Source: Betaproteobacteria bacterium
Lineage (GTDB): Bacteria > Pseudomonadota > Gammaproteobacteria > Burkholderiales > UBA3065
Assembly: GCA_027490755.1 (NCBI GenBank)
Contig: JAIXXL010000021.1
Span: 25,675-89,674, forward strand
DNA: 64,000 nucleotides
Reading direction: 5' to 3'
Every line of letters starts with the position of its first letter. Positions within the stretch are counted from its first letter, which is position 1. The notes beneath the pieces were generated by a model. The model did no database searches. It saw only the letters and a list, made by a program, of their open reading frames with translations, and was not told where the DNA came from. A program made the position numbers and the translations under genes. Below, piece by piece: positions 35,813-62,356 of this stretch.

Positions 35813-36594
35813 GCGCCGCGATGAGGGGTAACGGCTCACCCGTCCGCTGGCAGGACCTCACCTGGGAACAGGTCGCGGCCTTGAGGGACAGCGGAATAGA
35901 CCTTGCCATCCTGCCGGTAGGGGCCACAGAACAGCACGCGCTTCATCTGCCCTTGGGCGTCGATACGCTCTCTGCGGTGGCCGTGGCGGAAGGTGTTTCG
36001 GCGCGCACCGGGTTCCCTGTGCTGCCCGCCATCCCGGTAGGGTGCTCGCTGGGCCACAGCAAGCACTGGCCTGGAACACTCTCGCTGCGGCCCGAGACGC
36101 TCGCTCGCGTGGTCTACGAGATCGCCGAATGGGTCGAGGCCGCGGGCTTCCAGCGTCTGGTCATCCTCAATGGGCACGTCACCAACTGGGCGCCGCTGCG
36201 TTGTGCGCTTGAGAATGTGCGGGCCGATTTTCCCGAAGTGCGCATCGCATTGCGCTCCATCTGGGAGATCACTCGCGAGATCGGGGAGGTCTATTTCAGC
36301 GACGGCGGGACCAATTTCCACGCCAACACGGCGGAAACGTCGCTGATGCTGCACCTTCACCCAGAGCTCGTCGACATGGACAAGGCCACGGCCGAGCCGG
36401 ACCGCTCTACATGCTGCTTCTTTTCCTACACGGTGAACAAGGAGAGTGTCCACGGCGGTTGCGGCGACCCGACCGGTGCCACTGCCGAGGACGGTGCGGC
36501 GTTACTCGCAAAATGTGTCGAGGAATTCTCGATTCAACTGGTCAAGGCTCAAGCCGAACGCAACCCCCTGGAGGAGATGCCTCCACCTGGTTGA
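35809..36594 (+). CDS. Creatininase-family amidohydrolase
   Basis: 'AILPVGATEQHALHLPLGVD' and 'ILNGHVTNW...' are creatininase-fold metal-binding blocks. The start overlaps the permease stop (atga). Confidence 0.8.
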   Translation: MSAAMRGNGSPVRWQDLTWEQVAALRDSGIDLAILPVGATEQHALHLPLGVDTLSAVAVAEGVSARTGFPVLPAIPVGCSLGHSKHWPGTLSLRPETLARVVYEIAEWVEAAGFQRLVILNGHVTNWAPLRCALENVRADFPEVRIALRSIWEITREIGEVYFSDGGTNFHANTAETSLMLHLHPELVDMDKATAEPDRSTCCFFSYTVNKESVHGGCGDPTGATAEDGAALLAKCVEEFSIQLVKAQAERNPLEEMPPPG

Positions 36595-36624
36595 ATCACC
36601 CCCGACGAACGCAAGGAGAACACA

Positions 36625-37986: not shown

Positions 37987-38003
37987 TCGCCTCGAGCTGG
38001 CGA

Positions 38004-48638: not shown

Positions 48639-48982
48639 ACCCCGAACAGCGCGGCGTAGCGCTTTTCCGAAAAGCCCAGCTCGATCTGGCCGTCCTTCTC
48701 CAGCACCGGTCGCTTGATCAGCGAGGGCTTCTCCATCATCAGCTCGATGGCCTGCTCGGGGCTGGTCACGGCCTCCTTGCGCTCGGCCGGCAGCGCCCGC
48801 CAGGTCAGCCCGGCGCGGTTGCACAGCCGCTCCCAAGGCACCTGCGCCAGCCACACCTCCAGCTGCTCGCGCGTCACCCCCTGCGACTTGAAGTCATGGA
48901 AGTCGTAGGCCTGGCCGCTGGCATCCAGCCAGGCGCGCGCCTTCTGCACCGTGCCGCACTTCTCGAGTCCGTACATCCTCAT
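48635..48982 (-). CDS. ArsC/Spx-family reductase-like protein (YffB type)
   Basis: 115 aa, '[19 protein letters not shown]...IKRPVLE'. Its stop overlaps the dapE GTG (gtga). Confidence 0.8.
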
Positions 48983-49940: not shown

Positions 49941-51185
49941 TCAGGCGCCAAGACGCTGCCAGTGGCGGGCGATGCGGTGGGCGCCTTCGACACACTGCTC
50001 GAAGGGTGCCACCAGCGCGATACGGGCGTAGTTTGCGCCGGGGTTGATGCCGTGCGCCTCCCGTGCCAGGTAGCTGCCGGGCAGCAGCAGCACGTTCTCT
50101 TCCGCCAGCAGCGTCTTCACAAAGGTCTCGTCATCAACCGGCGTCGGTAGCCACAGATAGAAGCCGGCGTCCGGCCGCTCCACGCCAGTCACCGGGCCGA
50201 GGATGGGCAGCAGGGCGTCGAACTTGGCCTTGTACAGCGCGCGGTTCTCGCGCACGTGAGCCTCGTCGTGCCAGGCCGCCACGCTGGCAGCCGCCACCGC
50301 CTCGCTCATGGCGCAGCCGTGGTAGGTCCGGTAGAGCAGGAACTTCTTGATCAGCTCGTCTTCGCCGATGACATAGCCGGACCGCAGGCCCGGCGCGTTG
50401 GAGCGCTTGGACAGCGAGCCGAACACCAGCAGCTTGCGGTAGTCGCTGCGGCCCAGCTCCTGAGCTGCCTGCAGCGCACCCAGCGGCGGGTGCGCCTCGT
50501 CGAAGTAGATCTCCGAGTAGCACTCGTCGGAGGCGATGACGAAGCCGTAGCGGTCGGCGAGTGCGAACAGTGTCCGCCAGAAGTCGAGGCCTAGCACGGC
50601 GCCGGTGGGGTTGCCGGGTGAGCAGATGTAGAAGAGCTGGGTGCGCGCCCAGATGGCATCCGGCACGCTGCCGAGGTCTGGCACGTAGCCTGAGGCCGAG
50701 ACCGTGTTCAGGTAATAGGGCTCGGCGCCAGCCAGCAGGGCCGCACCTTCGTAGATCTGATAGAACGGGTTGGGCGAGATGACCACCGGCCGCACGCCGC
50801 CCTCGGGCGCTGGCCGCACCACCGCCTGCGCGATGGCGAACAGCGCCTCGCGGCTGCCGTTGACCGGGATCACCTGGCTGCCGATGTCCAACGCCGGCAG
50901 GCCATACCGGCGCTGCGCCCAGTCGGCGATAGCTTGGCGCAGGCTGGCCGGGCCTTGCGTGGTCGGGTAATTGGAAAGACTGCCCAGCCCCGCAGTCAAC
51001 GCCTCGCCTATGAGTGCCGGCGTGGCGTGGCGCGGCTCGCCGATGGACAGGTTGACGCGCGGCAGGTCGCTGCGTTCGGGGATGCCGGCCACCAGCGCCG
51101 AGAGCTTCTGGAACGGGTAGGTCTGAAGGGTGTCTAGGCGAGGGTTCAAAAACGTGTCCAGGTTGGGGCCGTGCCCGGGCTTCAC
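49941..51185 (-). CDS. dapC: Succinyldiaminopimelate aminotransferase (class I PLP aminotransferase)
   Basis: 'NPRLDTLQTYPFQKL', 'SPGNPTG', 'SLSKRSNAPGLRSG' (PLP Lys). A TTG at 51149 giving 'MNPRLD...' is a likely alternative start. Confidence 0.85.
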   Translation of the reverse strand: MKPGHGPNLDTFLNPRLDTLQTYPFQKLSALVAGIPERSDLPRVNLSIGEPRHATPALIGEALTAGLGSLSNYPTTQGPASLRQAIADWAQRRYGLPALDIGSQVIPVNGSREALFAIAQAVVRPAPEGGVRPVVISPNPFYQIYEGAALLAGAEPYYLNTVSASGYVPDLGSVPDAIWARTQLFYICSPGNPTGAVLGLDFWRTLFALADRYGFVIASDECYSEIYFDEAHPPLGALQAAQELGRSDYRKLLVFGSLSKRSNAPGLRSGYVIGEDELIKKFLLYRTYHGCAMSEAVAAASVAAWHDEAHVRENRALYKAKFDALLPILGPVTGVERPDAGFYLWLPTPVDDETFVKTLLAEENVLLLPGSYLAREAHGINPGANYARIALVAPFEQCVEGAHRIARHWQRLGA

Positions 51186-51246
51186 TCGTGATAGGGTCGG
51201 CGCGGTCCGGCCACCGGGGTGGGCCGGAGATTATAGGGGGGCGGGA

Positions 51247-52161
51247 GTGGTCGGCAAAGGCACTGGGGCGGGAGACGTCTCTTCCGGGCGTGAGGGGGCG
51301 GTTGTCGTGATCGGGGTGATGACCGGTGCCGCGGTCTGGGGCTTGGTCTGGTATCCCTACCGCGCGCTTGAGGCCGCCGGGTTCTCTTCTACCGCATCGA
51401 CGGCGCTGACCTACGCCATCAGTCTGGCCGTTGGCGTCGCGTTGTTCGGCACCCGGCTCGGCGAGCTGCGACGGCACTGGCGCGCGGTGCTGCTGATCGC
51501 GGTCATCGCCGGCTGGACCAATCTTTCCTATGTGCTCGGCATGGTCGGCGGCGAGGTCATGCGCGTGCTGCTGTTGTTCTACCTGGCGCCGCTGTGGACC
51601 GTGATTCTTGCGCGCATCGTGCTCGGCGAGCGGCTGACGCTGCAGTCCGGTGTACTGGTCGCGCTGTCGCTGGCGGGCGCCCTGATCATGCTCTGGCCGG
51701 AGCAGGGCCTGCCCCTGCCGGCCAATGCGGCCGAATGGTTCGGCGTGACCGGCGGCATGAGCTTCGCCAGCATGAACGTGCTGTCGAAGGGCGCAGACCA
51801 GGTGAGCATCGAGACCAAGTCGGTGGCGACCTGGGCAGGCGTCCTCATCGTGTCCGCCATCTGGCTGGCGGTGGGCGGGGGGGCGTGGGCGGTGCCGGCG
51901 GCCGGCTGGGCGGAGTGGCTGATCCTCGTCCTGCTTGGTGTGGCGATGTTTGCCAGCACGGTGATCATTCAACACGGCATCCAGCGGGTCCCGGCCAATA
52001 CCGCGATCGTTCTGTTCCTGATCGAGCTGGTGGCGGGTGCGGTGTCCGCGGCGTTGTTGTCGGACGAGATGCTGCGGCCACAGGACTGGCTGGGTGGGTC
52101 GCTGATCATCGGCGCGAGTCTGGTGGCTGCGGCGAGAAAGGTAGGGGGCAGACGAGATTGA
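51247..52161 (+). CDS. EamA/DMT-family transporter
   Basis: About 10 TM helices with two EamA-like halves. GTG 51247 was chosen so that TM1 ('AVVVIGVMTGAAVWGLVW') is retained. Start uncertain (track ORF begins at 51130). Confidence 0.7.
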   Translation: MVGKGTGAGDVSSGREGAVVVIGVMTGAAVWGLVWYPYRALEAAGFSSTASTALTYAISLAVGVALFGTRLGELRRHWRAVLLIAVIAGWTNLSYVLGMVGGEVMRVLLLFYLAPLWTVILARIVLGERLTLQSGVLVALSLAGALIMLWPEQGLPLPANAAEWFGVTGGMSFASMNVLSKGADQVSIETKSVATWAGVLIVSAIWLAVGGGAWAVPAAGWAEWLILVLLGVAMFASTVIIQHGIQRVPANTAIVLFLIELVAGAVSAALLSDEMLRPQDWLGGSLIIGASLVAAARKVGGRRD

Positions 52162-52241
52162 GTGGACATGAAGCGCAGGTGTCGCTCAGCCGGTATCTGA
52201 CCGGGCCCAGCCTTTTTGGCGCGTGCTCCGGGGCACTGGTC

Positions 52242-54836
52242 ATGATGCGTCTTTCGCCTCAGTTGATTGCCTGGCTGGGTGGTGTAGCCAAGCGCGTTGA
52301 TCTGGCGATTTGGCGAAAGACCCTAGAGCTCGTGCTCGGGCGAGCGCCTGAACCGGCGCGTCACGGGCCCGGCACTGCGCAGACTCTCCGCTGGATCGAC
52401 CACCTGCTCGCGCTCAATGATGCCCTGCGTCTTTACTACTGCATCGCACAGGAGCCAGCGCGCGTCCACGAGTTGTCCTCGACTCGCTTGGTCACTTTTG
52501 TGCCTTGTGATGATTCACAGTTGGGCTTGCGCGCCACTGCCGTATCGGTCGCCATGCTTCTCGACATGCTTGGGCCGCGCCTGGGCAATACCCGCTTCGG
52601 ATCGTTCCAACCACTGGATCACGGCTTGTCTGAACGTTTGCGTGAACGGGTCCGCGCCTGGCGCGAATGGGCCGAGGCCAACGCGCTGAACGTCAACGCC
52701 CGCTGGATCGCGCGCGAGGCTGTTGCGCGGGGCATCCCGTATCACCGTGAACCTGGATCCAAGCTGCTCGTTCGGCTCGGGCATGGTGCGAGCCAGCGGC
52801 GACTCAACGGCCCGTACGTGGACCGGGTGAGCAGCGTTGCCACGCATTGGTCAAATGACAAATGGCAGACCAGCAACCTCTTCGCCGCGCACGGCCTGCC
52901 GACGGCCGGGACCCGGTTGGTCGCCAGTTTCGAGCAGGCTCTGGCCCAGGCTAAGCGGTTCGGCTGGCCGGTCGTCGTCAAGCCGCGTTCTACTGACAAG
53001 GGCGTCGGCATCACCATCAACATCACCGACGAACCCGGCCTGCGGCAAGCTTTTGAGCATGCCACCAGATTTCGCGGGGGTGTCCTCGTGGAGCGCCATG
53101 TATCCGGATATGACCATCGCCTGCTGGTGGTCGGTGGCCGCTTTGTCGCCGCTGCTCTCCGACTGCCCGCACGCGTCGAGGGCGATGGCCAAAGGACCAT
53201 CGCGGAACTTGTCCATGCCCTGAATCTGGCCCGGTTTACGGGTCGGTTGCCAGGCGCCTACCGCTCTGAGGTGCCTGTGGTCCTGGACCATGAAGCGCTG
53301 CGGGTCCTCATAGCCCAGGGGTATGCGCCGGGTGACGTTCCAGCGGCAGGCGCCACGGTCACCCTTCGTGGGAACGCGAATCTTTCGACAGGCGGGAGTG
53401 CCGAGGACGTTACCGAGCAGGTTCACGTCGACAACCGCGCGCTGGCGGAGCAAGCGGCACGCCTCATAGGGCTGTGCACGGCAGGGCTCGACCTGCAGAC
53501 GAGCGATATCAGCCGGTCTTGGCGCGAGGTCGGCGGCGCTATCCTCGAGATCAACGCCGGCCCGGGTCTGCCGGTGCACCACTCGAGAACGTCCCGCTAC
53601 ACGGTACGAAAGGCCATCGTCGACGATCTGTTCCCGGCAGGGGCGACCGGTCGGATCCCCACCGCAGGTGTGACTGGCAGCATCGGCAAGACCACAACCT
53701 GCCGCATGCTTTCGAGCATCCTGAAGCATGCCGGGCACACGGTAGCGCTCACGGGCACCCAAGGCGCCTTCCTCGACGAGCGGCAGTTGCGAAAGGGCGA
53801 TCTGGCGGGGGGGCGGGCGGCACTGTCTCTGCTGCAAGACCCTGCGGCCACCGCCTGCGTCGCTGAGCTGGCGCGTGGGGGCCTCATCCGTAGCGGCTTG
53901 GGGTTGGACGTCCTCGATGTCGGTTCGGTGCTGAATGTGTACGACAACCATGTCGGGCTCGACGGCATCGAGACCCGCGAGCAGATGGCCCGCGTCAAGC
54001 AGTTGGTCGTCAGGCATGCCCGGCAGCTGGCGGTCCTGAACGCGGATGACCCGCTATGTCTGGCGATGAGCGATGGTATGGACCCGACCAGGGTGTGTCT
54101 GGTCAGCGAGGCGATGAGTCCGCGACTGACGGCGCACCTTGAGGCGGGTGGCATGGTCGCGACGATGCGCGACGCGGAACGAGGCCCGCTGCTCAGTTTG
54201 CAACGGGGCGCCGACATTCTGGGGGAGATGCCCGTCGCAGACATCCCGGCGACGTGGGGTGCCAGATTCCGCCCGGCGATGCTCAACGCACTGTTCGCTG
54301 CGGCTCTGGCTCACGGGCTCCGCGTACCGTTTCGGCATATCGAGACCGGCCTGGCGGCCTTTACGTCCGATTACGCCAGCAACCCGGGGCGGACGAACCG
54401 CATCTCGGGTCTGCCGTTCGATCTGTGGGTCGCGTGGTGCGATGGCCCCGAGGCGTGCACCGAGATGTCGCGCTTGATGTCCCGAATCGGGGGCGATGTG
54501 ATAGGGCATCTGGTGATCTATGCGGTTGGCAATCGCCCTGACGCCTTCACCCGCGCCTCAGCAGACGCTGTCGCCGGCGCTTTCGATCGCTACTACTGCA
54601 CCGACATGGAAGAAGACCGTCGCGGACGGGCGTTCGGCGAGGTCGCTGGGCTGCTGGCCGACAGCCTTCGGAAGGCAGGGGTCGCCGACTCCGCGATCGT
54701 CGTCGAGCCCTCCAGCAGTGCCGCCGTAAAAAGGGCCTTGGCCGAGATGCCAGCGGGGGGCATGTTGGTCATCCAGACCTACCATCCCGACACAGTCATG
54801 GCCTCGGTGCGTGCCATGTGGCCCGACGCCGCCTAG
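52242..54836 (+). CDS. Cyanophycin synthetase-like protein (N-terminal region + ATP-grasp + Mur-ligase-like domain)
   Basis: ATG-ATG at 52242 (in-frame GTG alternative at 52179). ATP-grasp blocks 'GWPVVVKPRSTDKGVGI', 'VLVERHVSGYDHRLLVVGGRFVAAALR' and 'AILEINAGPGLPVH'. Mur-ligase P-loop 'GVTGSIGKTTTCRML' and 'VAELARGGLIRSGLGLD...NVYDNHVG', as in CphA. The upstream part of the 1080-aa track ORF overlaps the EamA gene in another frame. Confidence 0.8.
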   Translation: MMRLSPQLIAWLGGVAKRVDLAIWRKTLELVLGRAPEPARHGPGTAQTLRWIDHLLALNDALRLYYCIAQEPARVHELSSTRLVTFVPCDDSQLGLRATAVSVAMLLDMLGPRLGNTRFGSFQPLDHGLSERLRERVRAWREWAEANALNVNARWIAREAVARGIPYHREPGSKLLVRLGHGASQRRLNGPYVDRVSSVATHWSNDKWQTSNLFAAHGLPTAGTRLVASFEQALAQAKRFGWPVVVKPRSTDKGVGITINITDEPGLRQAFEHATRFRGGVLVERHVSGYDHRLLVVGGRFVAAALRLPARVEGDGQRTIAELVHALNLARFTGRLPGAYRSEVPVVLDHEALRVLIAQGYAPGDVPAAGATVTLRGNANLSTGGSAEDVTEQVHVDNRALAEQAARLIGLCTAGLDLQTSDISRSWREVGGAILEINAGPGLPVHHSRTSRYTVRKAIVDDLFPAGATGRIPTAGVTGSIGKTTTCRMLSSILKHAGHTVALTGTQGAFLDERQLRKGDLAGGRAALSLLQDPAATACVAELARGGLIRSGLGLDVLDVGSVLNVYDNHVGLDGIETREQMARVKQLVVRHARQLAVLNADDPLCLAMSDGMDPTRVCLVSEAMSPRLTAHLEAGGMVATMRDAERGPLLSLQRGADILGEMPVADIPATWGARFRPAMLNALFAAALAHGLRVPFRHIETGLAAFTSDYASNPGRTNRISGLPFDLWVAWCDGPEACTEMSRLMSRIGGDVIGHLVIYAVGNRPDAFTRASADAVAGAFDRYYCTDMEEDRRGRAFGEVAGLLADSLRKAGVADSAIVVEPSSSAAVKRALAEMPAGGMLVIQTYHPDTVMASVRAMWPDAA

Positions 54837-54846
54837 CGCCTTCCCG

Positions 54847-56646
54847 TCAGCGTGCGTTCGCCGTGTCGGCGGCGTTGGCCTCGAGCATCGGCTCCAGCAG
54901 TTCCTTGAGGCGGCGGATGACGTTGGTATCCAGGTCAGCTTTGTTGCGCTGCCGCCCCGAGTGATCCTCCACCGTCGTGAAGCGGTCGACAGGGCTGCCG
55001 GTGCGCAGTAGTTCTTCGTTACTCACCACCAAGACGATGCGGTCGACGTCCGGGTCCAGCAGAAGGGCGGTGCAGCGTGCGTAAAGCCCTCGCGCTGTCA
55101 GGACCAACTCGGTTCGGTCGGGCCCGACCGTCCGGTCGTGGTCGGTGATGTAACAGCGCTCGTTGCTCGCGGCCGCCTCCGCGCGGATTTTCTCGGCGCG
55201 CTTCCAGGCCGACCCACCGCCAAGGATTGCATGGACAGGGATGCGGCCAGCGTGCGGAAGTACCGTCTCGAACATCTTGCGCAACAACGCTCGCGTACGC
55301 GGACCGCCGGACACGAAAGGTGCCGAGTTCACCTCGATGATGACGGCAGAGTTCTCGTGCCAAGGTATGGATGCGTCATCCGTCATAAGGTCCACACCGG
55401 CGATGTCCAGCCCCATCTGCCGCGCGGCCCGCACGCAGATCGCCGCGTTATCCGGGTGCAGATGGTCCGTTACGTTCCCAGATTCACCACCCCACTCTGT
55501 GGATTCTCGCGGGCGCAGGTAGACCCATCGTCCCTCAGTCGGCACAGACTCTACGGTGAGTCCCTGGCGGGAGAGTTCGGCCTCGGCGACCTTGTCGATC
55601 TGCGGCACATTCGATCGCTCCCACAATGGCTTGAGGCTCGCCTGGTGGTTTGCCAGCGTGATGAGCTCTTGTACCGTCGATGTCCCATCGCCCTGAATAC
55701 GTCTCGGAAAGCGCGTCACAGCAAACAGCACGCTGCCGAATCCCACCAGTACACGGTGGCAGATTCCGGGCGCCTGAGCTTCGACGAGGACCCGGCGCGA
55801 CAGTCTGTTTGCAGCCTCGAAGGCGGCGGCGAGGGTCGTCTCGTCGCCGATGCCGGTGGTCACGCCCTCTCCCCGGTCACGGTCGTTGGGTTTCACAACC
55901 ACGGGCCATCCGATCGCACGCGCGGCCTCAGCAGCTTGCTGCTCATCCAGAACCAGATGGTTCAAAGGCACAGGGATCCCAACCTGGCGCAAGATCTGCG
56001 TGGTCAGGGATTTTCTTTGAGCTGCACTTGCACCCAGATGAGAATCGGTGGAGACGTTGCTGCGGTGCAAGCGCATGGCTCTCGCTCCCCAGCCCAGGCA
56101 GTAGCGCGATGCTCCGAGGTGCAGGAAGGGAATGTCAGCGTCGTACGCGGCCCACAAAAGGCCGATCGAAGACTTGCCGCCTTCGCTCATGGTGCTTCGG
56201 ACCGGTTCGATGAACCCATCATGGATGCTCTTCTGCAGGCTCTCGTGGTCTCGTTCCGCAGCCGCGGGTTCAAGCCCCGCTTGCAGGATCCGTATGGCCA
56301 ACTTGTAGGCACTGTTGCGCTGCGCGGGCGGAAGAGGGTCGACGACCGGGACGCGGGCCACCACTTCGAACATGTCGTTCTCACCGGGCACGATCCGAAC
56401 GACAAGCCCGGCCTCGAAGACCGGTGCCCGGGCGGCCCGAAGGAGATGCGCGGCGAGCGCCAGCAGCCGATCGACGAGCAGCGCCGGGGTCGGGCTGGCG
56501 CCGGCCGACTCACCGGGCGGGAGACCAGTCCAACGCTCGAGCACTTGATCGAGTCTGGCTATCTCGCATGTGGTCTGGAGCGTGGCCTTGTCGACCCGGA
56601 GCGTGATGGTTCGCGTCCTTTGGCGGAGGCCGGGTAGGTAGCTCAT
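54847..56646 (-). CDS. CphA2-like ATP-grasp protein (CphA-type N/ATP-grasp regions, vestigial Mur-ligase region without P-loop)
   Basis: 599 aa. 'GKSSIGLLWAAYDADIPFLHLG...CLGWGARAMRL', 'GWPVVVKPNDRDRGEGV', 'VLVEAQAPGICHRVLV' and 'AVIIEVNSAPFV' are paralogous to 52242-54836. At the position of the P-loop it reads 'ILGGGSAWKRA'. Confidence 0.75.
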   Translation of the reverse strand: MSYLPGLRQRTRTITLRVDKATLQTTCEIARLDQVLERWTGLPPGESAGASPTPALLVDRLLALAAHLLRAARAPVFEAGLVVRIVPGENDMFEVVARVPVVDPLPPAQRNSAYKLAIRILQAGLEPAAAERDHESLQKSIHDGFIEPVRSTMSEGGKSSIGLLWAAYDADIPFLHLGASRYCLGWGARAMRLHRSNVSTDSHLGASAAQRKSLTTQILRQVGIPVPLNHLVLDEQQAAEAARAIGWPVVVKPNDRDRGEGVTTGIGDETTLAAAFEAANRLSRRVLVEAQAPGICHRVLVGFGSVLFAVTRFPRRIQGDGTSTVQELITLANHQASLKPLWERSNVPQIDKVAEAELSRQGLTVESVPTEGRWVYLRPRESTEWGGESGNVTDHLHPDNAAICVRAARQMGLDIAGVDLMTDDASIPWHENSAVIIEVNSAPFVSGGPRTRALLRKMFETVLPHAGRIPVHAILGGGSAWKRAEKIRAEAAASNERCYITDHDRTVGPDRTELVLTARGLYARCTALLLDPDVDRIVLVVSNEELLRTGSPVDRFTTVEDHSGRQRNKADLDTNVIRRLKELLEPMLEANAADTANAR

Positions 56647-56782: not shown

Positions 56783-56881
56783 ATGCAAAATCAAGCTCCG
56801 CTCGCCCCGTATGGCGCGCTTCGTTTCACTCCGATCTCTACCAAAGTCGGTGGTGGCAAGGGTCTCGACAAGCCCGCCTGA
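56783..56881 (+). CDS. Unannotated 32-codon ORF (candidate precursor/primer peptide)
   Basis: 'gaggga'-N7-ATG. Translation 'MQNQAPLAPYGALRFTPISTKVGGGKGLDKPA'. It ends 20 nt before the HExxH ORF and is too short for the ORF track. Only positional evidence supports it. Confidence 0.3.
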   Translation: MQNQAPLAPYGALRFTPISTKVGGGKGLDKPA

Positions 56882-56901
56882 TCCCCGAGTGGTCCTCCAG
56901 T

Positions 56902-58014
56902 TTGCCATTGCTCGAACCTTGCTTTGCTGAAGGTGCTTCGCTTGACGCGGACATAAACGCCGCGCTTCGTGAAGGGGTGGCATGGTGTGCGCAACAAGCC
57001 GGGCTTGACCCGGCTTGTTGTTTTGATGGCGGGCCGATGCCGTCTGCGTGGTGCGGCAGCCCGGTCGATTTCGCTGCCTATTACGATTGGGCCATAGCCT
57101 TGACGTCGGCCGTCGACGATCCGCCGGCTCCCTGGGAGCCGGCTTCTTCTTCCGGTTCTGATGCAGCGGCGCGGCGTTGGCGTCCCTTTCTGCAACATTT
57201 CTCCGCCGCGTTCGCCTCGTCGGCCCGACCCGCGACCGATCACGCGACCCGTAACGTGTTGGCCGCGCCCGCCGTCGTCACCTTGGGCGAGCCTTGGTTC
57301 GACGCCGCAGCGAGCGAGCGCATCGTCCGCTGGTTGGACCTTGAGCCTGACAACGCCATGGCGCTGGTCGGCCTCAGCGCCGCTGAACTCCACGAGGCTC
57401 GCAGCGATGTCGAGCGCGCATTGGCTGCGTTGGCGGCCTGGGCACCCGGTTTCCACGGCGAGTTCGTCGCGGTGGTGCGGCGGTTGATCGTCGTCAAGCC
57501 GTCTGGCTCGCAGCGGATGACCTTCCGTGCCGCATCTTCGTTTGCGCTGTGGGGCGCTCTGGCCGGCAACCAGCAGGTGCACCCGCGCTGGTGGGACTGG
57601 GTGCCCACCTTGGTCCATGAGACGGCGCACTCGATCCTGTTCGCCCTGTCGCGACACGCCCCACTGGTCGAGAACGACCCAGCGGAGCGTTACGCCTCGC
57701 CCTTGCGCGATGATCCTCGGCCGATCGACGGCATCTACCACGCAGCATTTGTCTCGGCGCGCGAGGCGGTGGCTTTGGGCGAGTGTCTGCAGGCGATCGA
57801 TGCTGGCGTGGCACTTCCCGGAGTGGGTGATGATGAAGTCAGCGCTGTGCGCGCCGACTTTGCCGCGGTGCGGGAGAACTCGGTGCGGTCTTTTCATGAC
57901 TGCGTCGCCGTGCTCGAGCGGCATGCGCGGTTGAGCCCGTCTGGTCGCGACATACTTGATACGCTGCGACGGGAGCTTGAGGCGTTGGTCGGTGCGGCGG
58001 TCCACGCTGCTTAG
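56902..58014 (+). CDS. HExxH-motif domain protein (peptide beta-hydroxylase-like family)
   Basis: 370 aa, TTG start. The central 'PTLVHETAHSILF' HExxH motif sits in a helix-rich protein with no signal peptide, so it resembles the HEXXH-motif domain family rather than a classical zincin protease. Confidence 0.65.
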   Translation: MPLLEPCFAEGASLDADINAALREGVAWCAQQAGLDPACCFDGGPMPSAWCGSPVDFAAYYDWAIALTSAVDDPPAPWEPASSSGSDAAARRWRPFLQHFSAAFASSARPATDHATRNVLAAPAVVTLGEPWFDAAASERIVRWLDLEPDNAMALVGLSAAELHEARSDVERALAALAAWAPGFHGEFVAVVRRLIVVKPSGSQRMTFRAASSFALWGALAGNQQVHPRWWDWVPTLVHETAHSILFALSRHAPLVENDPAERYASPLRDDPRPIDGIYHAAFVSAREAVALGECLQAIDAGVALPGVGDDEVSAVRADFAAVRENSVRSFHDCVAVLERHARLSPSGRDILDTLRRELEALVGAAVHAA

Positions 58015-58087
58015 CTTCGCCAGCCAGCCCCGAGGCTGATCAAGCCCGTGCGGGTTGACTTGCCGCGGCAGCCCTAGCCCGCCAACC

Positions 58088-58999
58088 ATGAACATCCTGC
58101 TCACCGGGGCATCGGGGTATTTCGGCAGCGCGCTTTTGGCCGAACTCTTGCCGGCCCACCGCGCGAACCTGCACCGGGTGACCGTGCTAGTTCGCGGGGA
58201 CCAGGCAGCGCAGTCGGGTCGGTCAGACGTCCCCACGCTGCGCGAGATGGACTTGCACGCGTCGACGCTCCGCTCGCGAGGCATCGATACCGTCATCCAT
58301 CTTGCTGCAGCGCGCTCGTCCACAGATATCCCAGCGCAGAACCGCTCCCTGGAGTTGAGCCGCAGACTGCTCGAAGCCTCAGCGGGTGCAGATGTGAGGC
58401 GCCTCGTCCTCGCGTCCAGTCACGCCGTGTACGGGACACAGCCAACGCCGTGGGACGAGGATGTGACTGTTCCCGCGCCCGTGACCTTGTACGGCTTGGC
58501 AAAACGCGCAACCGAGTTGATGCTCGATGCCAGTCCGGTGTCGACGGTCTCGGCCCGTCTGGCCAAGCTGGTCGGGCCGTCGCCGAGGTTCCGCGTTCAG
58601 CCAAGCGAACTCCCCCACGTCCTCTTGTCGTACGCCCTCAAGGGAAAGCTGGTTGTGATGCGCAACCCTAAACAGCGTTTCGATTTCCTCGACGTGCGCG
58701 ATGCAGTGCAGGGGGTCATCGCGATCGCCAACCACTCTGGGGAGGGGTTGCCAGGTGCGATCAACTTGGGTTCAGGTGGCGTGGTGATGAGTGCGGAGGT
58801 TGCCGCAATGGTCGATGACGTGTTCCGACCAATGGGTTTTCCCCTGCGTTATCAATTCGAGACCGAGAGTACGCCAGCACCGAGGGACTTCGGGATGTCC
58901 ATCAAACTTGCCCACCGTTGCTTGGGGTGGAGCCCGGAAATCGCCCTGCGGATGACGCTTGAAGGTATTGCAGGGCAATGGGCAATACGTGCCCTCTAA
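58088..58999 (+). CDS. NAD-dependent epimerase/dehydratase (extended SDR)
   Basis: ATG 58088: 'MNILLTGASGYFGSAL' (Rossmann GxxGxxG) and catalytic 'YGLAK' (YxxxK). Confidence 0.8.
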   Translation: MNILLTGASGYFGSALLAELLPAHRANLHRVTVLVRGDQAAQSGRSDVPTLREMDLHASTLRSRGIDTVIHLAAARSSTDIPAQNRSLELSRRLLEASAGADVRRLVLASSHAVYGTQPTPWDEDVTVPAPVTLYGLAKRATELMLDASPVSTVSARLAKLVGPSPRFRVQPSELPHVLLSYALKGKLVVMRNPKQRFDFLDVRDAVQGVIAIANHSGEGLPGAINLGSGGVVMSAEVAAMVDDVFRPMGFPLRYQFETESTPAPRDFGMSIKLAHRCLGWSPEIALRMTLEGIAGQWAIRAL

Positions 59000-59038: not shown

Positions 59039-62000
59039 TCAATGAACCCAAGTGCGCAACAGTTCGTGCAGCCCGGTCAGCCTGCTCCGGGTAAGCAGCG
59101 AGGCTTTGTCGGAGTACGCATGCACCTGCTCATCGACGAACTCGACCCGATCGATCTGTCCCAGGGGCATCCCTCTGGCGAGGAACTCGTCGGTCTGCAC
59201 CACGACCACCAGCGCCCCGACATCCTTTCTTAGAACCAAGGCTCGGGTTCGCTCATATAAGACCCTTCCCGACGCCATTGCATGCGTTCGGCCTGACGGT
59301 GCAATTGTACGTTCTGCGCTGCTCAAGAACGCCGCGAGCCCTTTTCTGCAGAGTTCTTGCCATCGTGTCTCCGCCGCGCTCCACGCCGCGTCCCCACCCA
59401 CAAAAGCCTCCACAGGTATCCGGCCTTTGTTCACCAGCAGTCGGTCGAGATACTCGGGCAGGTAGCGGCGCGAGATCTCTCCGCCACCCAGCAAGGGCGC
59501 GTAGTTCACCTCATTGATGACCGCACCGTTCTCGTACCATGGCCGGGTGATGTCGGGGCTGATGATGTCCACGCCAGCGACCTCCAGGCTCATGAGCGCG
59601 GTGGCATCGAGCGCGATCCTCAGGTTGTCCGGATGAAGGTCGTGCGTAACTTCCTCGTCGACGCCGCCCCATGCCGAGGTCTCGATGCGTCGCAGACGCA
59701 CAAAGCGCCCCTTGCCGGGGACCGACTCGGCTAGCCAGCCGTCGCGCTTTAGGGTCTGCACGGCAAGTTCGTCCAGGGCGATCGGGTTGCACTGCCACGG
59801 CGGGATGAGCGACTGTCGCGCCCGTTCTCGCTCGACCAGCTCCCGTACTGTCGATTCGCCGTCCCCGTAGACGCCGATTGGGAGTCTGCGCACGGCATAC
59901 AGCAGCCGACCCGCGGTGATGAACAGCCGATGGCAAACCCCCTCGACCTGCTGCTCGACCAGTACCTGCTTGCCTCGTGATAGCTTGAGCGCTGCCGCGA
60001 ACGCAGCGTCGAGTGTCTCTGCATTGACATCGACGCTGACGCCTTCGCCACGCTCGCGGTCGGCCGGTTTCACGACCACCGGGTAACCCAGCCGGTCGGC
60101 GATCTGCTGCGCTTGTTCGCGTGCGCGCGCAACCCCGTGCCGCGGCGCTGGCAGACCTGCTTCGCGCAACAACTGCGCGGTCACGCGCTTGTTCTCTGTC
60201 AGCGCCATGCCGAAGACCGAATCCCGGTCGGTCGTGCTCCGGTCGATCCTCCGTGCCCGTTCACCCCAGCCCAATTGGTAGATGCCGCCGCTGATCGGTC
60301 GGAACGGTACGCCAGTCTCCCGCGCGACACGGAGCACCTCGAACGTGGATTTCCCGGCAGATACAGCTTGGGCGTGGCGCTTTACCAAGCTTTCATAGAT
60401 CTTTGCAAAGAACCCTTCGCGGAGCGAGGCATCTGCAGGGTCGGCGTTGTTCGCCCATTTGGCGACGGCGGATGCCTGCTTGAGAACATCCTGCAACACG
60501 CTATTTGGCGCCGCCTCGGTACCATTCAGACGGATAGTGGCTTGCCAACGCCCAGCGCGTGCGGTGTCAGGCTGACAGGTGAGGACCATCGGCTCATCAA
60601 ACATCGGCACTCGGACCGCATGCAGCAGGGCCAAGGCAAACCGCAAGACGCCGTGCAGCCAGAATCGGGCCCGCTCCTCTGTCCCCGAGGGAACCGTCTG
60701 GGGTTCCTCTGCGCGACCCGCATGGCCCGCGAGCAGTGTCAGCCAAGCCTGGAGTCTTAAGGCGTCTGGCTGGGCAGGGGGCTCGAAAGCCACATTCAGC
60801 GTTCCATTGGTGGCGACATGCGGCGCAGATGCCATTGGGGTCTTGCCACTCGTGGCCCCGGTCAAGTACTTGTGGAGCAGGGCCTGCACCGCATCGTGCT
60901 GGATCTTCCCTTGCTCGTTGCGGGGTATGCGATCAACCACCACTGCAGCGTGCAGCGCATGTGCCCCCAATCGTTCTTTCACATGCTCGACCAGGTGCGG
61001 CGGAGCGGCATCCATGGCGCGCCTGAGTTCGACAAGTGCCACAGGGACGTCCTGTAGAACAGAGTGCCGTATTGGCATGACGTGCGCGTCAGCGACAGCG
61101 GGGTGTGTCCGTAGGCACTCCTCCACCTCGGCGGGGTAGAGGTTGACGCCGCTGATGATCATCATGCCGTCGGCTCGACCGCGGTGGACGAGTTGCCCGC
61201 CAGGGGTCAACAAGCCTATATCGCCCGTCGCAAACCAGCCCTTCTTGAAAACGCGGCGGTTGTGTTCTCCCTCACCCACATAGCCGCAGATCGCAGCCGG
61301 GGAGTGGATCTCGATGAGGCCTTCTTGTCCATCAGGTAAGCGCTTGCCGTGCGCATCGACGACCCGCAAGCGGAAACCCGGGAGGGGGCTGCCCACGCCA
61401 CCGGGAAGCGTAAAAACATCCTCTGGCCTGGTTATCGTCGATGTGTGTGTCTCGTTGGTGCCGTAGAACAGGAACAGGTTGGGTGTCAGGCGGTCACGGA
61501 TCCTCTGGCGCAGGCCCATCGATACTGTTGAGCCTCCGATCATCAGGGCGTGCAGTCCAGCCAAGGGGCCCTTTCGCTCATTTTCAGGCTTCCTCAGCAT
61601 CAGCTCGGCGTGGAAGGCCGTGCCGTAGACAGCAGAGACTTGGCCAGACGTGACGAGAGACTCGAAATCGAACGCACCTGGTTTGCCAAGAAACACGCTG
61701 GCGCCTATGGCAAAGGCCTCGAGGCAACGTTGTTTGGCGGCATAGAAATGCATGCTCACCAAGCTGAGCAATGAGTCTTCGGGCCCGTATGGGAGCCACT
61801 TTGGCCCCAGGTTTGCGCGGGTGAGCTGTTGTCGATGGGTCACCGGTATGACCTTCGGCACGCCTGTGGACCCAGACCCGGTCACGTAGAGCCACGGTTG
61901 GTCGGCCACGTCTTCAGCGGCCGGTGGGACAGAGTCAGGGTCACCCGAGAGGGTCCCGAAGTCGATCGTGGGTAGGCCGTATGCCTTTGATTGAGGGGTG

Positions 62001-62356
62001 GCGTCGCCAGTCAGGATCGTGGCGGCGCTCGTGAGTGACAGCTGGCGTCGTGCATGTTCTTCGGGAGTCGAACTTGCGAGGCTCAGCGAGGTTGCACCAA
62101 TGTGCGCGAGTGCGAGCATTGCGACCAGATGGTCCAAAGGATCGTCCAGCGCTATGGCTACGGTACTACCCGTAACAATCCCGTATGCAAGCAGTCCGGA
62201 AGCGGTGGCGGCGACCCGCTGTTGCAATTCCACATAGGTGAGACGTTGGTCCGAGGTGGCGACAGCCGCCACGCCGGGATGCTGAATTGCCTCCCGGGAG
62301 AGGAGGCTTACGATGTTCTGTGACACTAGGGGGCTCTGCGGTGGTCGGCTAGGCAA
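59039..62356 (-). CDS. Fusion protein: ANL-superfamily adenylate-forming domain + CphA-like N/ATP-grasp module
   Basis: N-terminal approx. 500 aa: 'YVTGSGSTGVPKVIPVTH', 'FYGTNE', 'GWFATGDIG', 'GRADGMMIISGVNLYPAEVEE' and 'PRNEQGKIQ' (AMP-binding core motifs). C-terminal approx. 580 aa: 'GKSTFEVLRVARETGVPF...QLGWGERARRI', 'GYPVVVKPADRERGEGV', 'VLVEQQVEGVCHRLFI', 'AVINEVNYAPLL', then a P-loop-less region 'FVGGDAAWSAA'. An alternative GTG start at 62326 overlaps the GT stop (tagtg). Confidence 0.8.
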   Translation of the reverse strand: MPSRPPQSPLVSQNIVSLLSREAIQHPGVAAVATSDQRLTYVELQQRVAATASGLLAYGIVTGSTVAIALDDPLDHLVAMLALAHIGATSLSLASSTPEEHARRQLSLTSAATILTGDATPQSKAYGLPTIDFGTLSGDPDSVPPAAEDVADQPWLYVTGSGSTGVPKVIPVTHRQQLTRANLGPKWLPYGPEDSLLSLVSMHFYAAKQRCLEAFAIGASVFLGKPGAFDFESLVTSGQVSAVYGTAFHAELMLRKPENERKGPLAGLHALMIGGSTVSMGLRQRIRDRLTPNLFLFYGTNETHTSTITRPEDVFTLPGGVGSPLPGFRLRVVDAHGKRLPDGQEGLIEIHSPAAICGYVGEGEHNRRVFKKGWFATGDIGLLTPGGQLVHRGRADGMMIISGVNLYPAEVEECLRTHPAVADAHVMPIRHSVLQDVPVALVELRRAMDAAPPHLVEHVKERLGAHALHAAVVVDRIPRNEQGKIQHDAVQALLHKYLTGATSGKTPMASAPHVATNGTLNVAFEPPAQPDALRLQAWLTLLAGHAGRAEEPQTVPSGTEERARFWLHGVLRFALALLHAVRVPMFDEPMVLTCQPDTARAGRWQATIRLNGTEAAPNSVLQDVLKQASAVAKWANNADPADASLREGFFAKIYESLVKRHAQAVSAGKSTFEVLRVARETGVPFRPISGGIYQLGWGERARRIDRSTTDRDSVFGMALTENKRVTAQLLREAGLPAPRHGVARAREQAQQIADRLGYPVVVKPADRERGEGVSVDVNAETLDAAFAAALKLSRGKQVLVEQQVEGVCHRLFITAGRLLYAVRRLPIGVYGDGESTVRELVERERARQSLIPPWQCNPIALDELAVQTLKRDGWLAESVPGKGRFVRLRRIETSAWGGVDEEVTHDLHPDNLRIALDATALMSLEVAGVDIISPDITRPWYENGAVINEVNYAPLLGGGEISRRYLPEYLDRLLVNKGRIPVEAFVGGDAAWSAAETRWQELCRKGLAAFLSSAERTIAPSGRTHAMASGRVLYERTRALVLRKDVGALVVVVQTDEFLARGMPLGQIDRVEFVDEQVHAYSDKASLLTRSRLTGLHELLRTWVH

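What the first reader, a model, noticed from the sequence alone, without database searches (positions are those of the whole stretch)
54847..56646. CphA2-like paralogue with a vestigial, P-loop-less Mur-ligase region, convergent with the full-length gene at 10-bp spacing
The 599-aa protein keeps the CphA-type region preceding and including the ATP-grasp fold. Where the full-length paralogue has GVTGSIGKTTT, it reads ILGGGSAWKRA. Where that paralogue has ELARGGLIRSGLGLD, it reads SNEELLRTGSPVD. The same degeneration is seen in the C-terminus of the fusion protein (FVGGDAAWSAA). This parallels the described CphA2 type, which polymerises preformed dipeptides. If so, only one of the three enzymes can add side-chain residues, while two act on backbone carboxylates. 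The stop codons of the two convergent genes are only 10 nt apart, with no terminator hairpin between them.
Basis: partly seen in the sequence, partly recalled or inferred. Interest (0 to 1): 0.55.

Follow-up and report, generated by a model that had tools for sequence, protein, structure and literature searches.

The report
Cyanophycin-synthetase-derived ligase in a peptide-modification cassette
The gene encodes a cut-down relative of cyanophycin synthetase with one working active site, and it probably acts with a small conserved peptide gene and a peptide hydroxylase next to it, not in recycling the nitrogen-storage polymer cyanophycin.

Summary
The ORF at 54847-56646 (-) encodes 599 aa with CphA-like N and ATP-grasp (G) domains plus a ~130-aa tail. 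The tail is a Mur-ligase remnant without a P-loop. Its stop lies 10 nt from the stop of a full-length CphA-like gene.

The CphA2 reading holds for architecture only. The protein belongs to a large, mostly proteobacterial family ("NGm", G-domain clade bootstrap 99) that also includes the C-terminal half of the AMP-binding fusion. The ATP-grasp catalytic core is intact. The residues that bind cyanophycin, Asp or beta-Asp-Arg in CphA1 and CphA2 are replaced. All three paralogues score far below the cyanophycin-synthetase cut-offs.

The full-length gene is an insertion absent from the two closest relatives.

The conserved partners are:
- a 32-aa ORF (56783-56881), under purifying selection;
- an aKG-HExxH peptide beta-hydroxylase (56902-58014), hidden under a spurious 510-aa antisense ORF.

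In 17 of 18 HExxH-ascertained metagenome loci with enough flank, the hydroxylase sits beside either an NGm ligase (5) or a separate ~330-aa partner protein of uncertain fold (12).

Best reading: a CphA-derived ligase working in an undescribed RiPP-like cassette. The chemistry is unknown.

The parts
54847..56646 (-). NGm-A: a 599-aa CphA-derived ATP-grasp ligase (the finding). It has an N domain (aa 1-~155), a G domain (aa ~156-470) and a vestigial M stub (aa ~471-599).
55237..56181 (-). G (ATP-grasp) domain of NGm-A. The catalytic core is intact (equivalents of Te CphA1 K220, K261, R309, R323, E450, N452). The cyanophycin/Asp-binding positions are replaced.
   Evidence: Residue roles come from PMC9427784 and PMC10273328.
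54850..55236 (-). Vestigial Mur-ligase (M) stub. It has no P-loop (ILGGGSAWKRA) and SNEELLRTGSPVD in place of E-ARGG-LRSGLG. It is well conserved across the family.
54837..54846 (.). 10-nt spacer between the two convergent stop codons. An inverted repeat (54823-54833 / 54868-54878) straddles it, with no T-run.
52158..54836 (+). Full-length CphA-like protein (892 aa; N, G and an M domain with an intact P-loop). Its start overlaps the EamA stop. It sits within a ~2.75-kb segment (~52135-54882) that replaces ~140 bp in the closest relative.
51130..52161 (+). EamA-family transporter. It is conserved next to NGm-A in close relatives and is translationally coupled here to the full-length gene.
56783..56881 (+). 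Small ORF of 32 aa (MQNQAPLAPYGALRFTPISTKVGGGKGLDKPA) with a GAGGGA ribosome-binding site. It is a candidate precursor or substrate peptide (LAPYG-x9-K[VI]G type).
56902..58014 (+). aKG-HExxH-type peptide beta-hydroxylase (370 aa from a TTG; other gene callers start at 57037, giving 325 aa). The 510-aa ORF at 56791..58323 (-) is its antisense shadow.
58055..58999 (+). NAD-dependent epimerase/dehydratase (SDR). It is an accessory gene, absent from the closest relative.
59039..62356 (-). AMP-binding (adenylate-forming) domain fused to NGm-B, which has the same N-G-stub layout (FVGGDAAWSAA). NGm-B is a separate paralogous lineage within the NGm clade.
62326..63582 (-). GT4-type glycosyltransferase, an accessory gene of the island in this lineage.

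Best explanation
Shown: the 599-aa protein belongs to a distinct, widespread family of cyanophycin-synthetase-derived ligases, which I call NGm. The family keeps the CphA N domain and a catalytically competent ATP-grasp G domain. It retains only the first ~100-130 residues of the Mur-ligase M domain, as a conserved non-catalytic stub. That stub is probably structural, as it is in CphA2.

Inferred: the protein does one ATP-dependent step. It phosphorylates a carboxylate to an acyl-phosphate and joins it to an amine, or possibly a hydroxyl. Its substrate pockets are rebuilt away from Asp, Arg and cyanophycin.

Inferred from conserved linkage: its substrate pathway is the adjacent, divergently transcribed pair. 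This is a small Lys/Gly-motif peptide (LAPYG-x9-KVG) and an aKG-HExxH peptide beta-hydroxylase. Together they form a compact RiPP-like cassette in which the ligase decorates, extends or cyclises the hydroxylated peptide.

In this genome the cassette has been enlarged with a second NGm fused to an adenylating domain, an SDR, a glycosyltransferase and, most recently, an inserted full-length CphA-like gene coupled to the EamA exporter. That insertion is what created the 10-nt convergent junction.
For: Family and fold:
- About 600-aa homologues at 35-44% identity occur in many taxa.
- In an NJ tree of 130 G domains, the NGm clade (68 sequences, including both NGm copies of the window and all AMP fusions) has bootstrap 99. 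It is separate from CphA1 and from the full-length paralogue's clade.
- The AF2 model (pLDDT 91.7) aligns along its whole length to CphA1 and CphA2.
- The tail is a Mur-ligase remnant and is conserved across the family.

Active site:
- The catalytic core is invariant or nearly so in the clade: the K220, K261, E450 and N452 equivalents in 68/68, R309 in 65/68, R323 in 67/68.
- E215, H267, R269, N394, S396, T397, G456 and R458 (conserved in 15-22 of 22 CphA1 sequences) become S, R, E, S, E, W, F and S here. The clade consensus is R/K, R, E, S, A/E, W, L, G.

Linkage:
- The HExxH hydroxylase (TIGR04267, 89 bits against a cut-off of 40) is the only conserved neighbour. It is present in 18 of 65 NGm loci.
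- A motif-bearing small ORF lies upstream of the hydroxylase in 17 of 17 evaluable genome loci.
- No such ORF was found by the same search in the 47 NGm loci without HExxH, each about 20 kb searched on both strands.
- The ORF shows 15 synonymous against 2 non-synonymous codon differences over 23 codons versus the relative whose NGm is 61% identical.
- In HExxH-ascertained metagenome loci with at least 2.5 kb on both sides, 17 of 18 have a partner within 3 kb: 5 NGm and 12 a ~330-aa family.
- Pooling genome and metagenome loci, all 11 LAPYG-type loci with enough flank carry NGm.
- Gene order and orientation vary (divergent, convergent, co-directional) while adjacency is kept.
- NGm-A phylogeny broadly tracks peptide type.

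Insertion: the closest relatives have EamA and NGm-A convergent with ~100 bp between them and no full-length gene.
Against: - No chemistry is shown.
- The peptide family has no conserved Asp or Glu, so the carboxylate partner is unknown. It could be the peptide C-terminus or a free acid.
- About 70% of NGm loci (47 of 65) lack HExxH and the peptide. They sit next to other genes such as MFS transporters, ornithine cyclodeaminase or AMP-binding enzymes. The family as a whole is therefore not tied to this peptide.
- The genome loci were ascertained through NGm. The unbiased set is small (18 loci).
- The alternative ~330-aa partner is only weakly ATP-grasp-like (E = 0.007 to Ddl; hhalign not significant).
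- CphA2 sequences could not be placed in the tree.
- The absence of a published description was checked only in the open-access library.
Confidence: 0.6

Rival explanations
1. CphA2-type recycling enzyme. The 599-aa protein polymerises beta-Asp-Arg, or a similar preformed dipeptide, into cyanophycin made by the adjacent full-length CphA1-like enzyme.
For: It has the CphA2-like N-G-truncated-M architecture. A full-length CphA-like gene with an intact M-domain P-loop lies next to it.
Against: - Substrate-binding residues shared by CphA1 and CphA2 are replaced: acidic 215/212, N394/393, S396/395, G456/455 and R458 (PMC9427784, PMC10273328).
- All three paralogues score far below the cyanophycin-synthetase cut-offs: 251, 581 and 218 bits against 877.
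- The full-length gene is absent from the closest relatives.
- The full-length protein itself lacks E215, H267, R269 and R458.
- Family members are rarely near any full-length CphA. No M domain lies near the conserved cassette.
- CphA2 is described as a cyanobacterial enzyme (PMC10273328).
Confidence: 0.05
2. A non-ribosomal, cyanophycin-like branched polyamide. The two NGm ligases extend backbone carboxylates and the full-length enzyme adds side-chain residues. The product is then hydroxylated, glycosylated or sulfated and exported through EamA. The small peptide would be only a primer, or unrelated.
For: - Three CphA-type ligases are clustered with an adenylating domain, an SDR, a glycosyltransferase, a sulfotransferase and an exporter.
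- The CphA G domain works on C-terminal carboxylates of primers (PMC9427784).
- Full-length family members are coupled to exporters or to a ~584-aa ATP-grasp elsewhere.
Against: - The accessory genes and the full-length gene are missing from the 94%-identical relative. That relative keeps only the peptide, HExxH and two NGm genes.
- Across taxa only the peptide and HExxH co-occur with NGm.
- Known aKG-HExxH enzymes act on ribosomal peptides (PMC12636437).
Confidence: 0.17
3. A small-molecule ligase, for example making a dipeptide, a compatible solute or a siderophore-like amide. The link to the peptide and hydroxylase would be only co-regulation or co-transfer.
For: - Many NGm genes stand alone beside MFS or EamA transporters, ornithine cyclodeaminase, TonB receptors or AMP-binding enzymes, with no HExxH.
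- The nearest non-CphA relatives are GshAB and NAGGN-type small-molecule ligases.
Against: - Linkage with HExxH plus the peptide is tight and independent of gene order in the subfamily to which the window's gene belongs: 11 of 11 LAPYG-type loci.
- In 17 of 18 HExxH-ascertained loci the hydroxylase sits beside NGm or a single alternative partner protein.
- NGm-A phylogeny tracks peptide type.
Confidence: 0.15
4. A decaying pseudogene copy of a CphA1 that lost its M domain and has no function.
For: It has lost the P-loop and about two thirds of the M domain.
Against: - The ORF is intact, and the family is large and conserved with an invariant catalytic core.
- The stub itself is conserved and folds confidently.
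Confidence: 0.02

Closest known systems
Cyanophycin synthetase 2 (CphA2; PDB 7ta5, 8fxh/8fxi)
   Same: Both have three domains: N, an active ATP-grasp G domain, and a truncated, P-loop-less, non-catalytic M domain. Size is similar, about 600-640 aa. The whole-chain structural match is TMq 0.65-0.67. The tail superposes on the CphA2 M stub with TMq 0.53-0.61 and rmsd ~3 A.
   Different: - Sequence identity is lower than to CphA1 (19-21% against 23-27%).
- The profile alignment to CphA2 ends with the G domain, whereas it continues into the M domain of CphA1.
- The cyanophycin and beta-Asp-Arg contact residues are not conserved.
- The family is proteobacterial, not cyanobacterial.
- The genomic partners are a small peptide and a hydroxylase, not cyanophycin genes.
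- The truncation is therefore probably independent (convergent).
Cyanophycin synthetase 1 (CphA1; PDB 7wac, 7lg5, 7lgn, 7lgm)
   Same: These are the best sequence and structure matches. The N and G domains are homologous, the ATP-grasp catalytic residues are identical, and the tail is homologous to the first part of the M domain.
   Different: - There is no functional M domain.
- There is no Cx19HxxEH peptidase motif in the N domain (motif from PMC9262961).
- The G-domain P-loop is DRDRGEG instead of DGNHGRG, and the large loop is RESTEWGG instead of TANLSTGG.
- It scores 251 bits against a curated cut-off of 877.
aKG-HExxH RiPP pathways (ChlBH triceptides, BpmH biphenomycins, PflC/PosC)
   Same: A TIGR04267-type hydroxylase is encoded next to a short conserved peptide gene. 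In the known systems the enzyme hydroxylates beta-carbons of residues in a ribosomal precursor (PMC12636437).
   Different: No radical-SAM, MNIO or nitroreductase partner is present. The partner is a CphA-derived ATP-grasp ligase or a ~330-aa protein. The precursor motifs (LAPYG-x9-K[VI]G; LLGF...[AS]K[IV]G) match no Pfam or NCBIfam model.
Peptide-directed ATP-grasp ligases (RimK, LysX/LysW, PGM1 of pheganomycin, graspetide ligases). This comparison rests on my own knowledge.
   Same: These are ATP-grasp enzymes that ligate onto a ribosomally made peptide or protein. RimK, Ddl and LysX are distant structural matches to the G domain.
   Different: They are not closely related in sequence. Graspetide precursors need Asp/Glu plus Ser/Thr/Lys, whereas this peptide family has no conserved acidic residue. 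None of them carries CphA N or M-stub domains.

Membership tests
Cyanophycin synthetase 2 (CphA2) | Three-domain layout N - G - truncated M (PMC10273328: N 1-158, G 159-486, M 487-636). | tested here: met
   The AF2 model (pLDDT 91.7) aligns over its whole chain to 7ta5 (TMq 0.67 / TMt 0.68) and to 8fxi. The tail modelled alone matches the CphA2 and CphA1 M region and MurE.
Cyanophycin synthetase 2 (CphA2) | The M domain is catalytically dead, with no ATP-binding P-loop. | tested here: met
   ILGGGSAWKRA aligns with GTNGKTTT, and SNEELLRTGS aligns with ETARGGILRSG.
Cyanophycin synthetase 2 (CphA2) | G-domain residues that bind cyanophycin or beta-Asp-Arg (StCphA2 D212, R308, N393, S395, G455; PMC10273328). 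| tested here: not met
   Only the R308/R309 equivalent is kept. The equivalents of 212/215, 393/394, 395/396 and 455/456 are S, S, E and F here and are also non-conserved across the clade. Positions were mapped through Te CphA1 numbering. The CphA2 sequences themselves could not be aligned here.
Cyanophycin synthetase 2 (CphA2) | Groups with cyanobacterial CphA2 sequences. | tested here: inconclusive
   Bit scores are higher to CphA1 (142-167) than to CphA2 (124-129). The family profile gives 268-284 against 246-247. Family members come mostly from Proteobacteria. CphA2 sequences could not be retrieved, so they are missing from the tree.
Cyanophycin synthetase 2 (CphA2) | Genomic or functional link to cyanophycin metabolism (CphA1, cyanophycinase). 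| tested here: not met
   Family loci rarely contain a full-length CphA. None of 18 unbiased cassette loci has an M domain nearby. The window's full-length gene is an indel. Cyanophycinase was not searched for across the whole window.
Cyanophycin synthetase 2 (CphA2) | Beta-Asp-Arg polymerase activity. | not testable with these tools
   This needs an enzyme assay.
Cyanophycin synthetase 1 (NCBIfam NF010623 / TIGR02068) | Whole-protein score above the curated cut-off (877 / 850 bits). | tested here: not met
   Against NF010623 the 599-aa protein scores 251 bits, the full-length paralogue 581 and the fusion 218.
Cyanophycin synthetase 1 | N-domain Cx19HxxEH primer-generating peptidase motif (PMC9262961; present in 83% of CphA1). 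| tested here: not met
   Residues 1-155 of the 599-aa protein contain no HxxEH. Pfam PF18921 is not reported for it or for its family.
ATP-grasp superfamily (CphA G-domain type) | ATP-phosphate lysines, Mg ligands E-x-N, and the acyl-phosphate-stabilising Arg. | tested here: met
   The K220, K261, R309, R323, E450 and N452 equivalents are present in the protein. Across the NGm clade they are conserved in 65-68 of 68 sequences.
Mur ligase central domain | P-loop GxxGK[ST][ST] and the Mg-binding Glu of the E-x-ARGG region. | tested here: not met
   Both are absent in the 599-aa protein and in the fusion. Both are present in the full-length paralogue (GVTGSIGKTTT). The fold remnant is nevertheless retained.
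aKG-HExxH peptide beta-hydroxylase (TIGR04267), for the neighbouring gene 56902-58014 | Score above the cut-off, with an invariant HExxH plus a downstream His. | tested here: met
   It scores 89.2 bits against a cut-off of 40, over profile positions 1-176 of 177. H104, E105, H108 and H145 are invariant in 15 relatives.
RiPP-type cassette (precursor peptide plus tailoring enzymes) | A short, conserved, translated ORF adjacent to the modifying enzymes. | tested here: met
   A motif-bearing ORF lies upstream of HExxH in 17 of 17 evaluable genome loci and in 40 of 80 metagenome loci. It has a ribosome-binding site. Codon differences are 15 synonymous against 2 non-synonymous.
RiPP-type cassette (precursor peptide plus tailoring enzymes) | The peptide is actually modified by the enzymes. 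| not testable with these tools
   This needs co-expression and mass spectrometry.
Graspetide (microviridin-type) ATP-grasp system | A precursor with conserved Asp/Glu and Ser/Thr/Lys for side-chain macrocycles, and a graspetide-type ligase. | tested here: not met
   The peptides have no conserved acidic residue; the L005 homologue has none at all. The ligase's nearest relatives are CphA enzymes.

The most novel reading that the evidence does not exclude
The small peptide, the aKG-HExxH hydroxylase and the NGm ligase constitute a previously undescribed RiPP class. In it, an enzyme descended from cyanophycin synthetase has been recruited to ligate onto a ribosomal Lys/Gly-motif peptide. The target would be a (hydroxy)lysine side chain, the new hydroxyl group or the C-terminus. 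A parallel branch of the same class would use an unrelated ~330-aa partner instead. This would be the first link between the cyanophycin-synthetase lineage and ribosomal peptide natural products.
Probability: 0.4. Interest if true: 0.8.

Novelty: new variant of a known kind. Interest (0 to 1): 0.66.

Why it matters
Cyanophycin synthetases are known as polymerases for one nitrogen-storage polymer, and CphA2 is regarded as a cyanobacterial speciality.

This work points to a large, unannotated proteobacterial family. Databases label its members 'hypothetical', 'acetate--CoA ligase family' or 'cyanophycin synthetase'. The family reached the same N-G-stub architecture, kept a live ATP-grasp site and rebuilt its substrate pockets.

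One branch of the family is locked to a conserved small peptide and a peptide hydroxylase. If confirmed, three things follow:
- a new RiPP-like family is defined, with simple precursor motifs that can be mined;
- a new ligation chemistry becomes available for peptide engineering;
- automatic 'cyanophycin' annotations, which would misreport nitrogen-storage capacity in many genomes, can be corrected.

It also gives a clean example of how a gene insertion creates an extremely tight convergent junction.

Tried and rejected
1. Placing CphA2 in the tree. The PDB sequence tool prints only the five best alignments, and CphA2 always ranked 6-7. P0073, a 643-aa candidate, was not a CphA2. Only four CphA1 G domains could be transcribed.
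2. The tail-only profile against PDB sequences found nothing significant; the best hits were chance matches to DapA. Homology needed profile-profile and structural comparison.
3. The 510-aa ORF at 56791..58323 (-) has no Pfam hit and is conserved only in close relatives. I rejected it as the antisense shadow of the HExxH gene.
4. A 589-aa ORF in L116 recurs by tblastn in 19 metagenome loci. It is Arg-rich, shows no similarity to NGm, and I rejected it as spurious.
5. The ~330-aa alternative partner is not demonstrably an ATP-grasp. It gives only a weak Ddl C-terminal match (E = 0.007), hhalign is not significant, and Pfam hits are marginal.
6. The search for further conserved neighbours of the cassette found none.
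7. Precursor peptides matched nothing in NCBIfam or Pfam.
8. Literature searches for a CphA-like enzyme in a RiPP context, or HExxH with ATP-grasp, found nothing relevant. One search was swamped by the CphA beta-lactamase.
9. A terminator at the junction was not found; only a non-significant straddling inverted repeat is present.
10. The M20 peptidase at 47484-48854 was considered as a possible dipeptidase for cyanophycin. It is a bona fide DapE.
Full report
**1. The observation**

The ORF at 54847..56646 (-) encodes 599 aa. It carries the quoted motifs ILGGGSAWKRA and SNEELLRTGSPVD. The convergent + strand gene ends at 54836 and carries GVTGSIGKTTT and ELARGGLIRSGLGLD. The fusion protein at 59039..62356 (-) carries FVGGDAAWSAA. 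The two stop codons leave a 10-nt spacer, 54837-54846.

No terminator-like site lies at the junction. An 11-nt GC-rich inverted repeat straddles both stops (54823-54833 / 54868-54878). The region folds no better than shuffled controls (z = 0.63) and lacks a T-run.

**2. What the protein is**

Pfam sees only ATP-grasp fragments. The NCBIfam cyanophycin-synthetase models match residues ~155-555 at 251 bits, against a cut-off of 877. The full-length neighbour scores 581 bits and the fusion 218, so none of the three qualifies as cyanophycin synthetase.

The best solved relatives are CphA1 enzymes (142-167 bits), ahead of CphA2 (124-129 bits).

An AlphaFold model built on 39 family members is confident (pLDDT 91.7). 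It aligns along its whole length to CphA1 (TMq 0.63-0.71) and to CphA2 (7ta5, TMq 0.67 / TMt 0.68). The N-G-truncated-M architecture that defines CphA2 (PMC10273328) is therefore present.

**3. The tail**

The family profile aligns colinearly through the tail onto the beginning of the CphA1 M domain, placing GGxxA under the P-loop GTNGKTT and VVQTDELLxTGLP under ETARGGILRSGL.

A tail-only profile finds nothing significant in PDB sequences. Two more sensitive tests do work:
- hhalign against M-domain alignments gives P = 1.9e-4 (CphA1) and 7.3e-5 (the full-length paralogue's family), at exactly the expected position.
- An independently modelled tail (pLDDT 90.2) retrieves CphA1, CphA2 and MurE as the best matches in the PDB (TMq 0.5-0.66).

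The tail is well conserved across the family. 'Vestigial' therefore means non-catalytic, not decaying.

**4. Family and phylogeny**

Homologues of ~600 aa at 35-44% identity are common in metagenomes. They also occur in genomes of Ramlibacter, Stutzerimonas, Pseudomonas, Vogesella, Novosphingobium, Solemya symbionts and others.

I built a neighbour-joining tree of 130 G domains with 100 bootstraps:
- The 599-aa protein, the C-terminal half of the fusion and all AMP-binding fusions form one clade of 68 sequences (bootstrap 99). I call this clade NGm.
- The full-length paralogue sits in a separate 12-member clade (bootstrap 100) of ~880-900-aa proteins that lack the Pfam CphA N-domain model.
- Bona fide CphA1 sequences are separate again.

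The 599-aa protein and the fusion share 37% identity over 544 aa, including the tail. Similarity to the full-length paralogue stops at the GRIP..G junction. CphA2 sequences could not be retrieved for the tree, which is a limitation.

**5. Active site**

I used the residue roles established for Trichodesmium CphA1 (PMC9427784) and Stanieria CphA2 (PMC10273328).

The ATP-grasp core is present in the protein and invariant or nearly so across the NGm clade: the K220, K261, E450 and N452 equivalents in 68 of 68 sequences, R309 in 65 and R323 in 67.

The positions that hold the Arg side chain of the primer, the acyl-phosphate and the incoming Asp are replaced. These positions are E215/D212, H267, R269, N394, S396, G456 and R458.
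- The G-domain P-loop DGNHGRG becomes DRDRGEG.
- The large loop TANLSTGG becomes RESTEWGG.
- R458 becomes Ser in this protein and Gly in most of the clade.

The enzyme is therefore predicted to be active but not specific for cyanophycin, Asp or beta-Asp-Arg.

The full-length paralogue keeps N394, S396 and G456. It has changed E215 (to H), H267 (to K), R269 (to V) and R458 (to P).

**6. Genomic context**

Flanking genes are housekeeping: dapC, dapD and a bona fide dapE. Next comes an EamA transporter.

The island that follows has lower GC, 0.60-0.65 against 0.68-0.70 in the flank. Its genes, in order, are:
- the full-length CphA-like gene (+);
- NGm-A (-);
- a region previously read as a 510-aa ORF (-);
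- an SDR epimerase (+);
- the AMP-binding-NGm-B fusion (-);
- a glycosyltransferase (-).

Beyond the window's end there is a 277-aa unknown protein and a sulfotransferase.

I clustered neighbour ORFs across 65 NGm loci. The only conserved neighbour, present in 18 loci, corresponds to the + strand ORF at 56902..58014, not the 510-aa antisense ORF. It is an aKG-HExxH-type peptide beta-hydroxylase (TIGR04267, 89 bits against a cut-off of 40). HExxH and a downstream His are invariant among its relatives. Characterised members hydroxylate residues of ribosomal precursor peptides (PMC12636437).

**7. The small ORF**

Directly upstream of the hydroxylase, with a GAGGGA ribosome-binding site, lies a 32-codon ORF at 56783-56881: MQNQAPLAPYGALRFTPISTKVGGGKGLDKPA.

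Equivalent ORFs lie upstream of the hydroxylase in 17 of 17 evaluable genome loci. They come in two motif types:
- [LM][AM]PYG-x9-K[VI]G;
- LLGF/LYGFK followed by repeated [AS]K[IV]G.

The same search found no such ORF in the 47 NGm loci that lack the hydroxylase.

Against the relative whose NGm is 61% identical, the first 23 codons differ at 15 synonymous and 2 non-synonymous codons. The upstream DNA is unalignable. This is a translated gene under strong purifying selection. Neither Pfam nor NCBIfam knows it.

**8. Reverse test**

I scanned metagenomes with the hydroxylase alignment and obtained 80 loci. Of the 18 loci with at least 2.5 kb on both sides, 17 have a partner within 3 kb:
- 5 have NGm;
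- 12 have an unrelated ~330-aa protein, which shows only a weak D-Ala-D-Ala-ligase-like C-terminal motif.

None has a Mur-ligase M domain nearby.

Pooling all loci, every LAPYG-type locus with enough flank has NGm (11 of 11). Gene order and orientation vary while adjacency persists. NGm-A sequences cluster by peptide type. NGm-B, the fusion lineage, is a separate and older paralogue found with both peptide types. No other neighbour is conserved.

**9. Origin of the tight junction**

The closest relatives are L007 (94% identity) and L005 (61%). In both, EamA and NGm-A are convergent with ~100 bp between them and no full-length gene.

Alignment to L007 shows homology breaking at ~52135, in the 3' end of EamA, and at ~54882, inside the last ~12 codons of the 599-aa ORF. 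A ~2.75-kb segment carrying the full-length gene therefore replaces ~140 bp.

The inserted gene's start overlaps the EamA stop. The 10-nt spacing is a by-product of this insertion.

L007 also lacks the SDR and the AMP-binding domain, and shows no glycosyltransferase on its 7.2-kb contig. It keeps the peptide, HExxH, NGm-A and an unfused NGm-B. Elsewhere, members of the full-length family pair with a 584-aa ATP-grasp or with an MFS exporter.

**10. Interpretation**

- Shown: a CphA-derived ligase with a single active site and a conserved Mur-ligase stub; membership of a large distinct family; tight linkage of its subfamily to a small conserved peptide gene and a peptide hydroxylase.
- Inferred: the ligase acts on that peptide, which would make a RiPP-like cassette. 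The chemistry is unknown. The peptide lacks conserved acidic residues, so the activated carboxylate is either the peptide's C-terminus or a free acid. Loss of the Asp-carboxylate binders (N394, R458), with Glu and Trp appearing in the nucleophile pocket, is compatible with a cationic nucleophile such as the invariant Lys. This last point is speculative.
- Against: about 70% of NGm loci lack the hydroxylase and the peptide. The family as a whole has other substrates.

I rate the CphA2-style beta-Asp-Arg polymerase reading at about 5%.

**11. Novelty**

Seven full-text searches found no description of a CphA-like enzyme in a RiPP context, nor of an HExxH with ATP-grasp cassette. The library covers open-access papers and bioRxiv only.

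I classify the finding as a new variant of a known kind: a CphA-lineage ligase with a probably independent CphA2-like truncation. There is a substantial chance (about 0.4) that it marks a new RiPP class.

Noticed in passing
window 56791..58323 (-): The 510-aa ORF is a spurious antisense shadow of the real + strand HExxH hydroxylase gene (56902..58014). It has no Pfam hit and is conserved only in close relatives.
   Followed up: yes
window ~52135..54882; L007 5960-6070: The full-length CphA-like gene lies on a ~2.75-kb segment that is absent from relatives at 94% and 61% identity. Its start overlaps the EamA stop, and the segment supplies the last ~12 codons of the 599-aa ORF.
   Followed up: yes
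L116, L128, L129, L140, L153, L158, L160, L164 (for example L153:4161-5153): HExxH-plus-peptide loci without NGm carry instead a conserved ~330-aa protein with no Pfam or NCBIfam family. It has only a weak Ddl-like 'GRADF...YEINxNP' motif. It may be an alternative ligase partner.
   Followed up: partly
L092 8250-12676: The 63%-identical homologue of the full-length paralogue is translationally coupled to an upstream 584-aa ATP-grasp. The pair sits beside two large ankyrin-repeat proteins.
   Followed up: no
L058, L059, L063 (Vogesella); L035: Tandem pairs of NGm genes occur without HExxH or the peptide. Other stand-alone NGm genes sit next to ornithine cyclodeaminase (L003) or an MFS transporter (L001). 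This points to other substrates for other NGm branches.
   Followed up: no
L090 14298-15379 (just beyond the window's 3' end): The island continues past the window with a 277-aa protein with no family and a Sulfotransfer_2 gene.
   Followed up: partly
window 54823-54833 / 54868-54878: An 11-nt, 91%-complementary GC-rich inverted repeat has its arms inside the 3' ends of both convergent genes. Its folding energy is not above shuffled controls.
   Followed up: yes
window 9130-9424 and 5835-8880: A tRNA-His/Arg/Pro cluster sits next to a lower-GC block (0.55-0.57). The block encodes a response-regulator-cyclase protein, a 151-aa unknown protein and a bestrophin-like protein.
   Followed up: partly
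window 32530-38000: tRNA-Phe is followed by a lower-GC block (0.57-0.62) with a TetR regulator, an amino-acid permease, a creatininase-family amidohydrolase and a glutamine-synthetase-like gene. It looks like a small catabolic island.
   Followed up: partly
L062 6917-7129; L068 11654-11884; L107: Some precursor candidates contain two full leader-like-plus-core units in one ORF, for example two LAPYG...VG units. Each ~30-aa unit may therefore be an independent substrate module.
   Followed up: no
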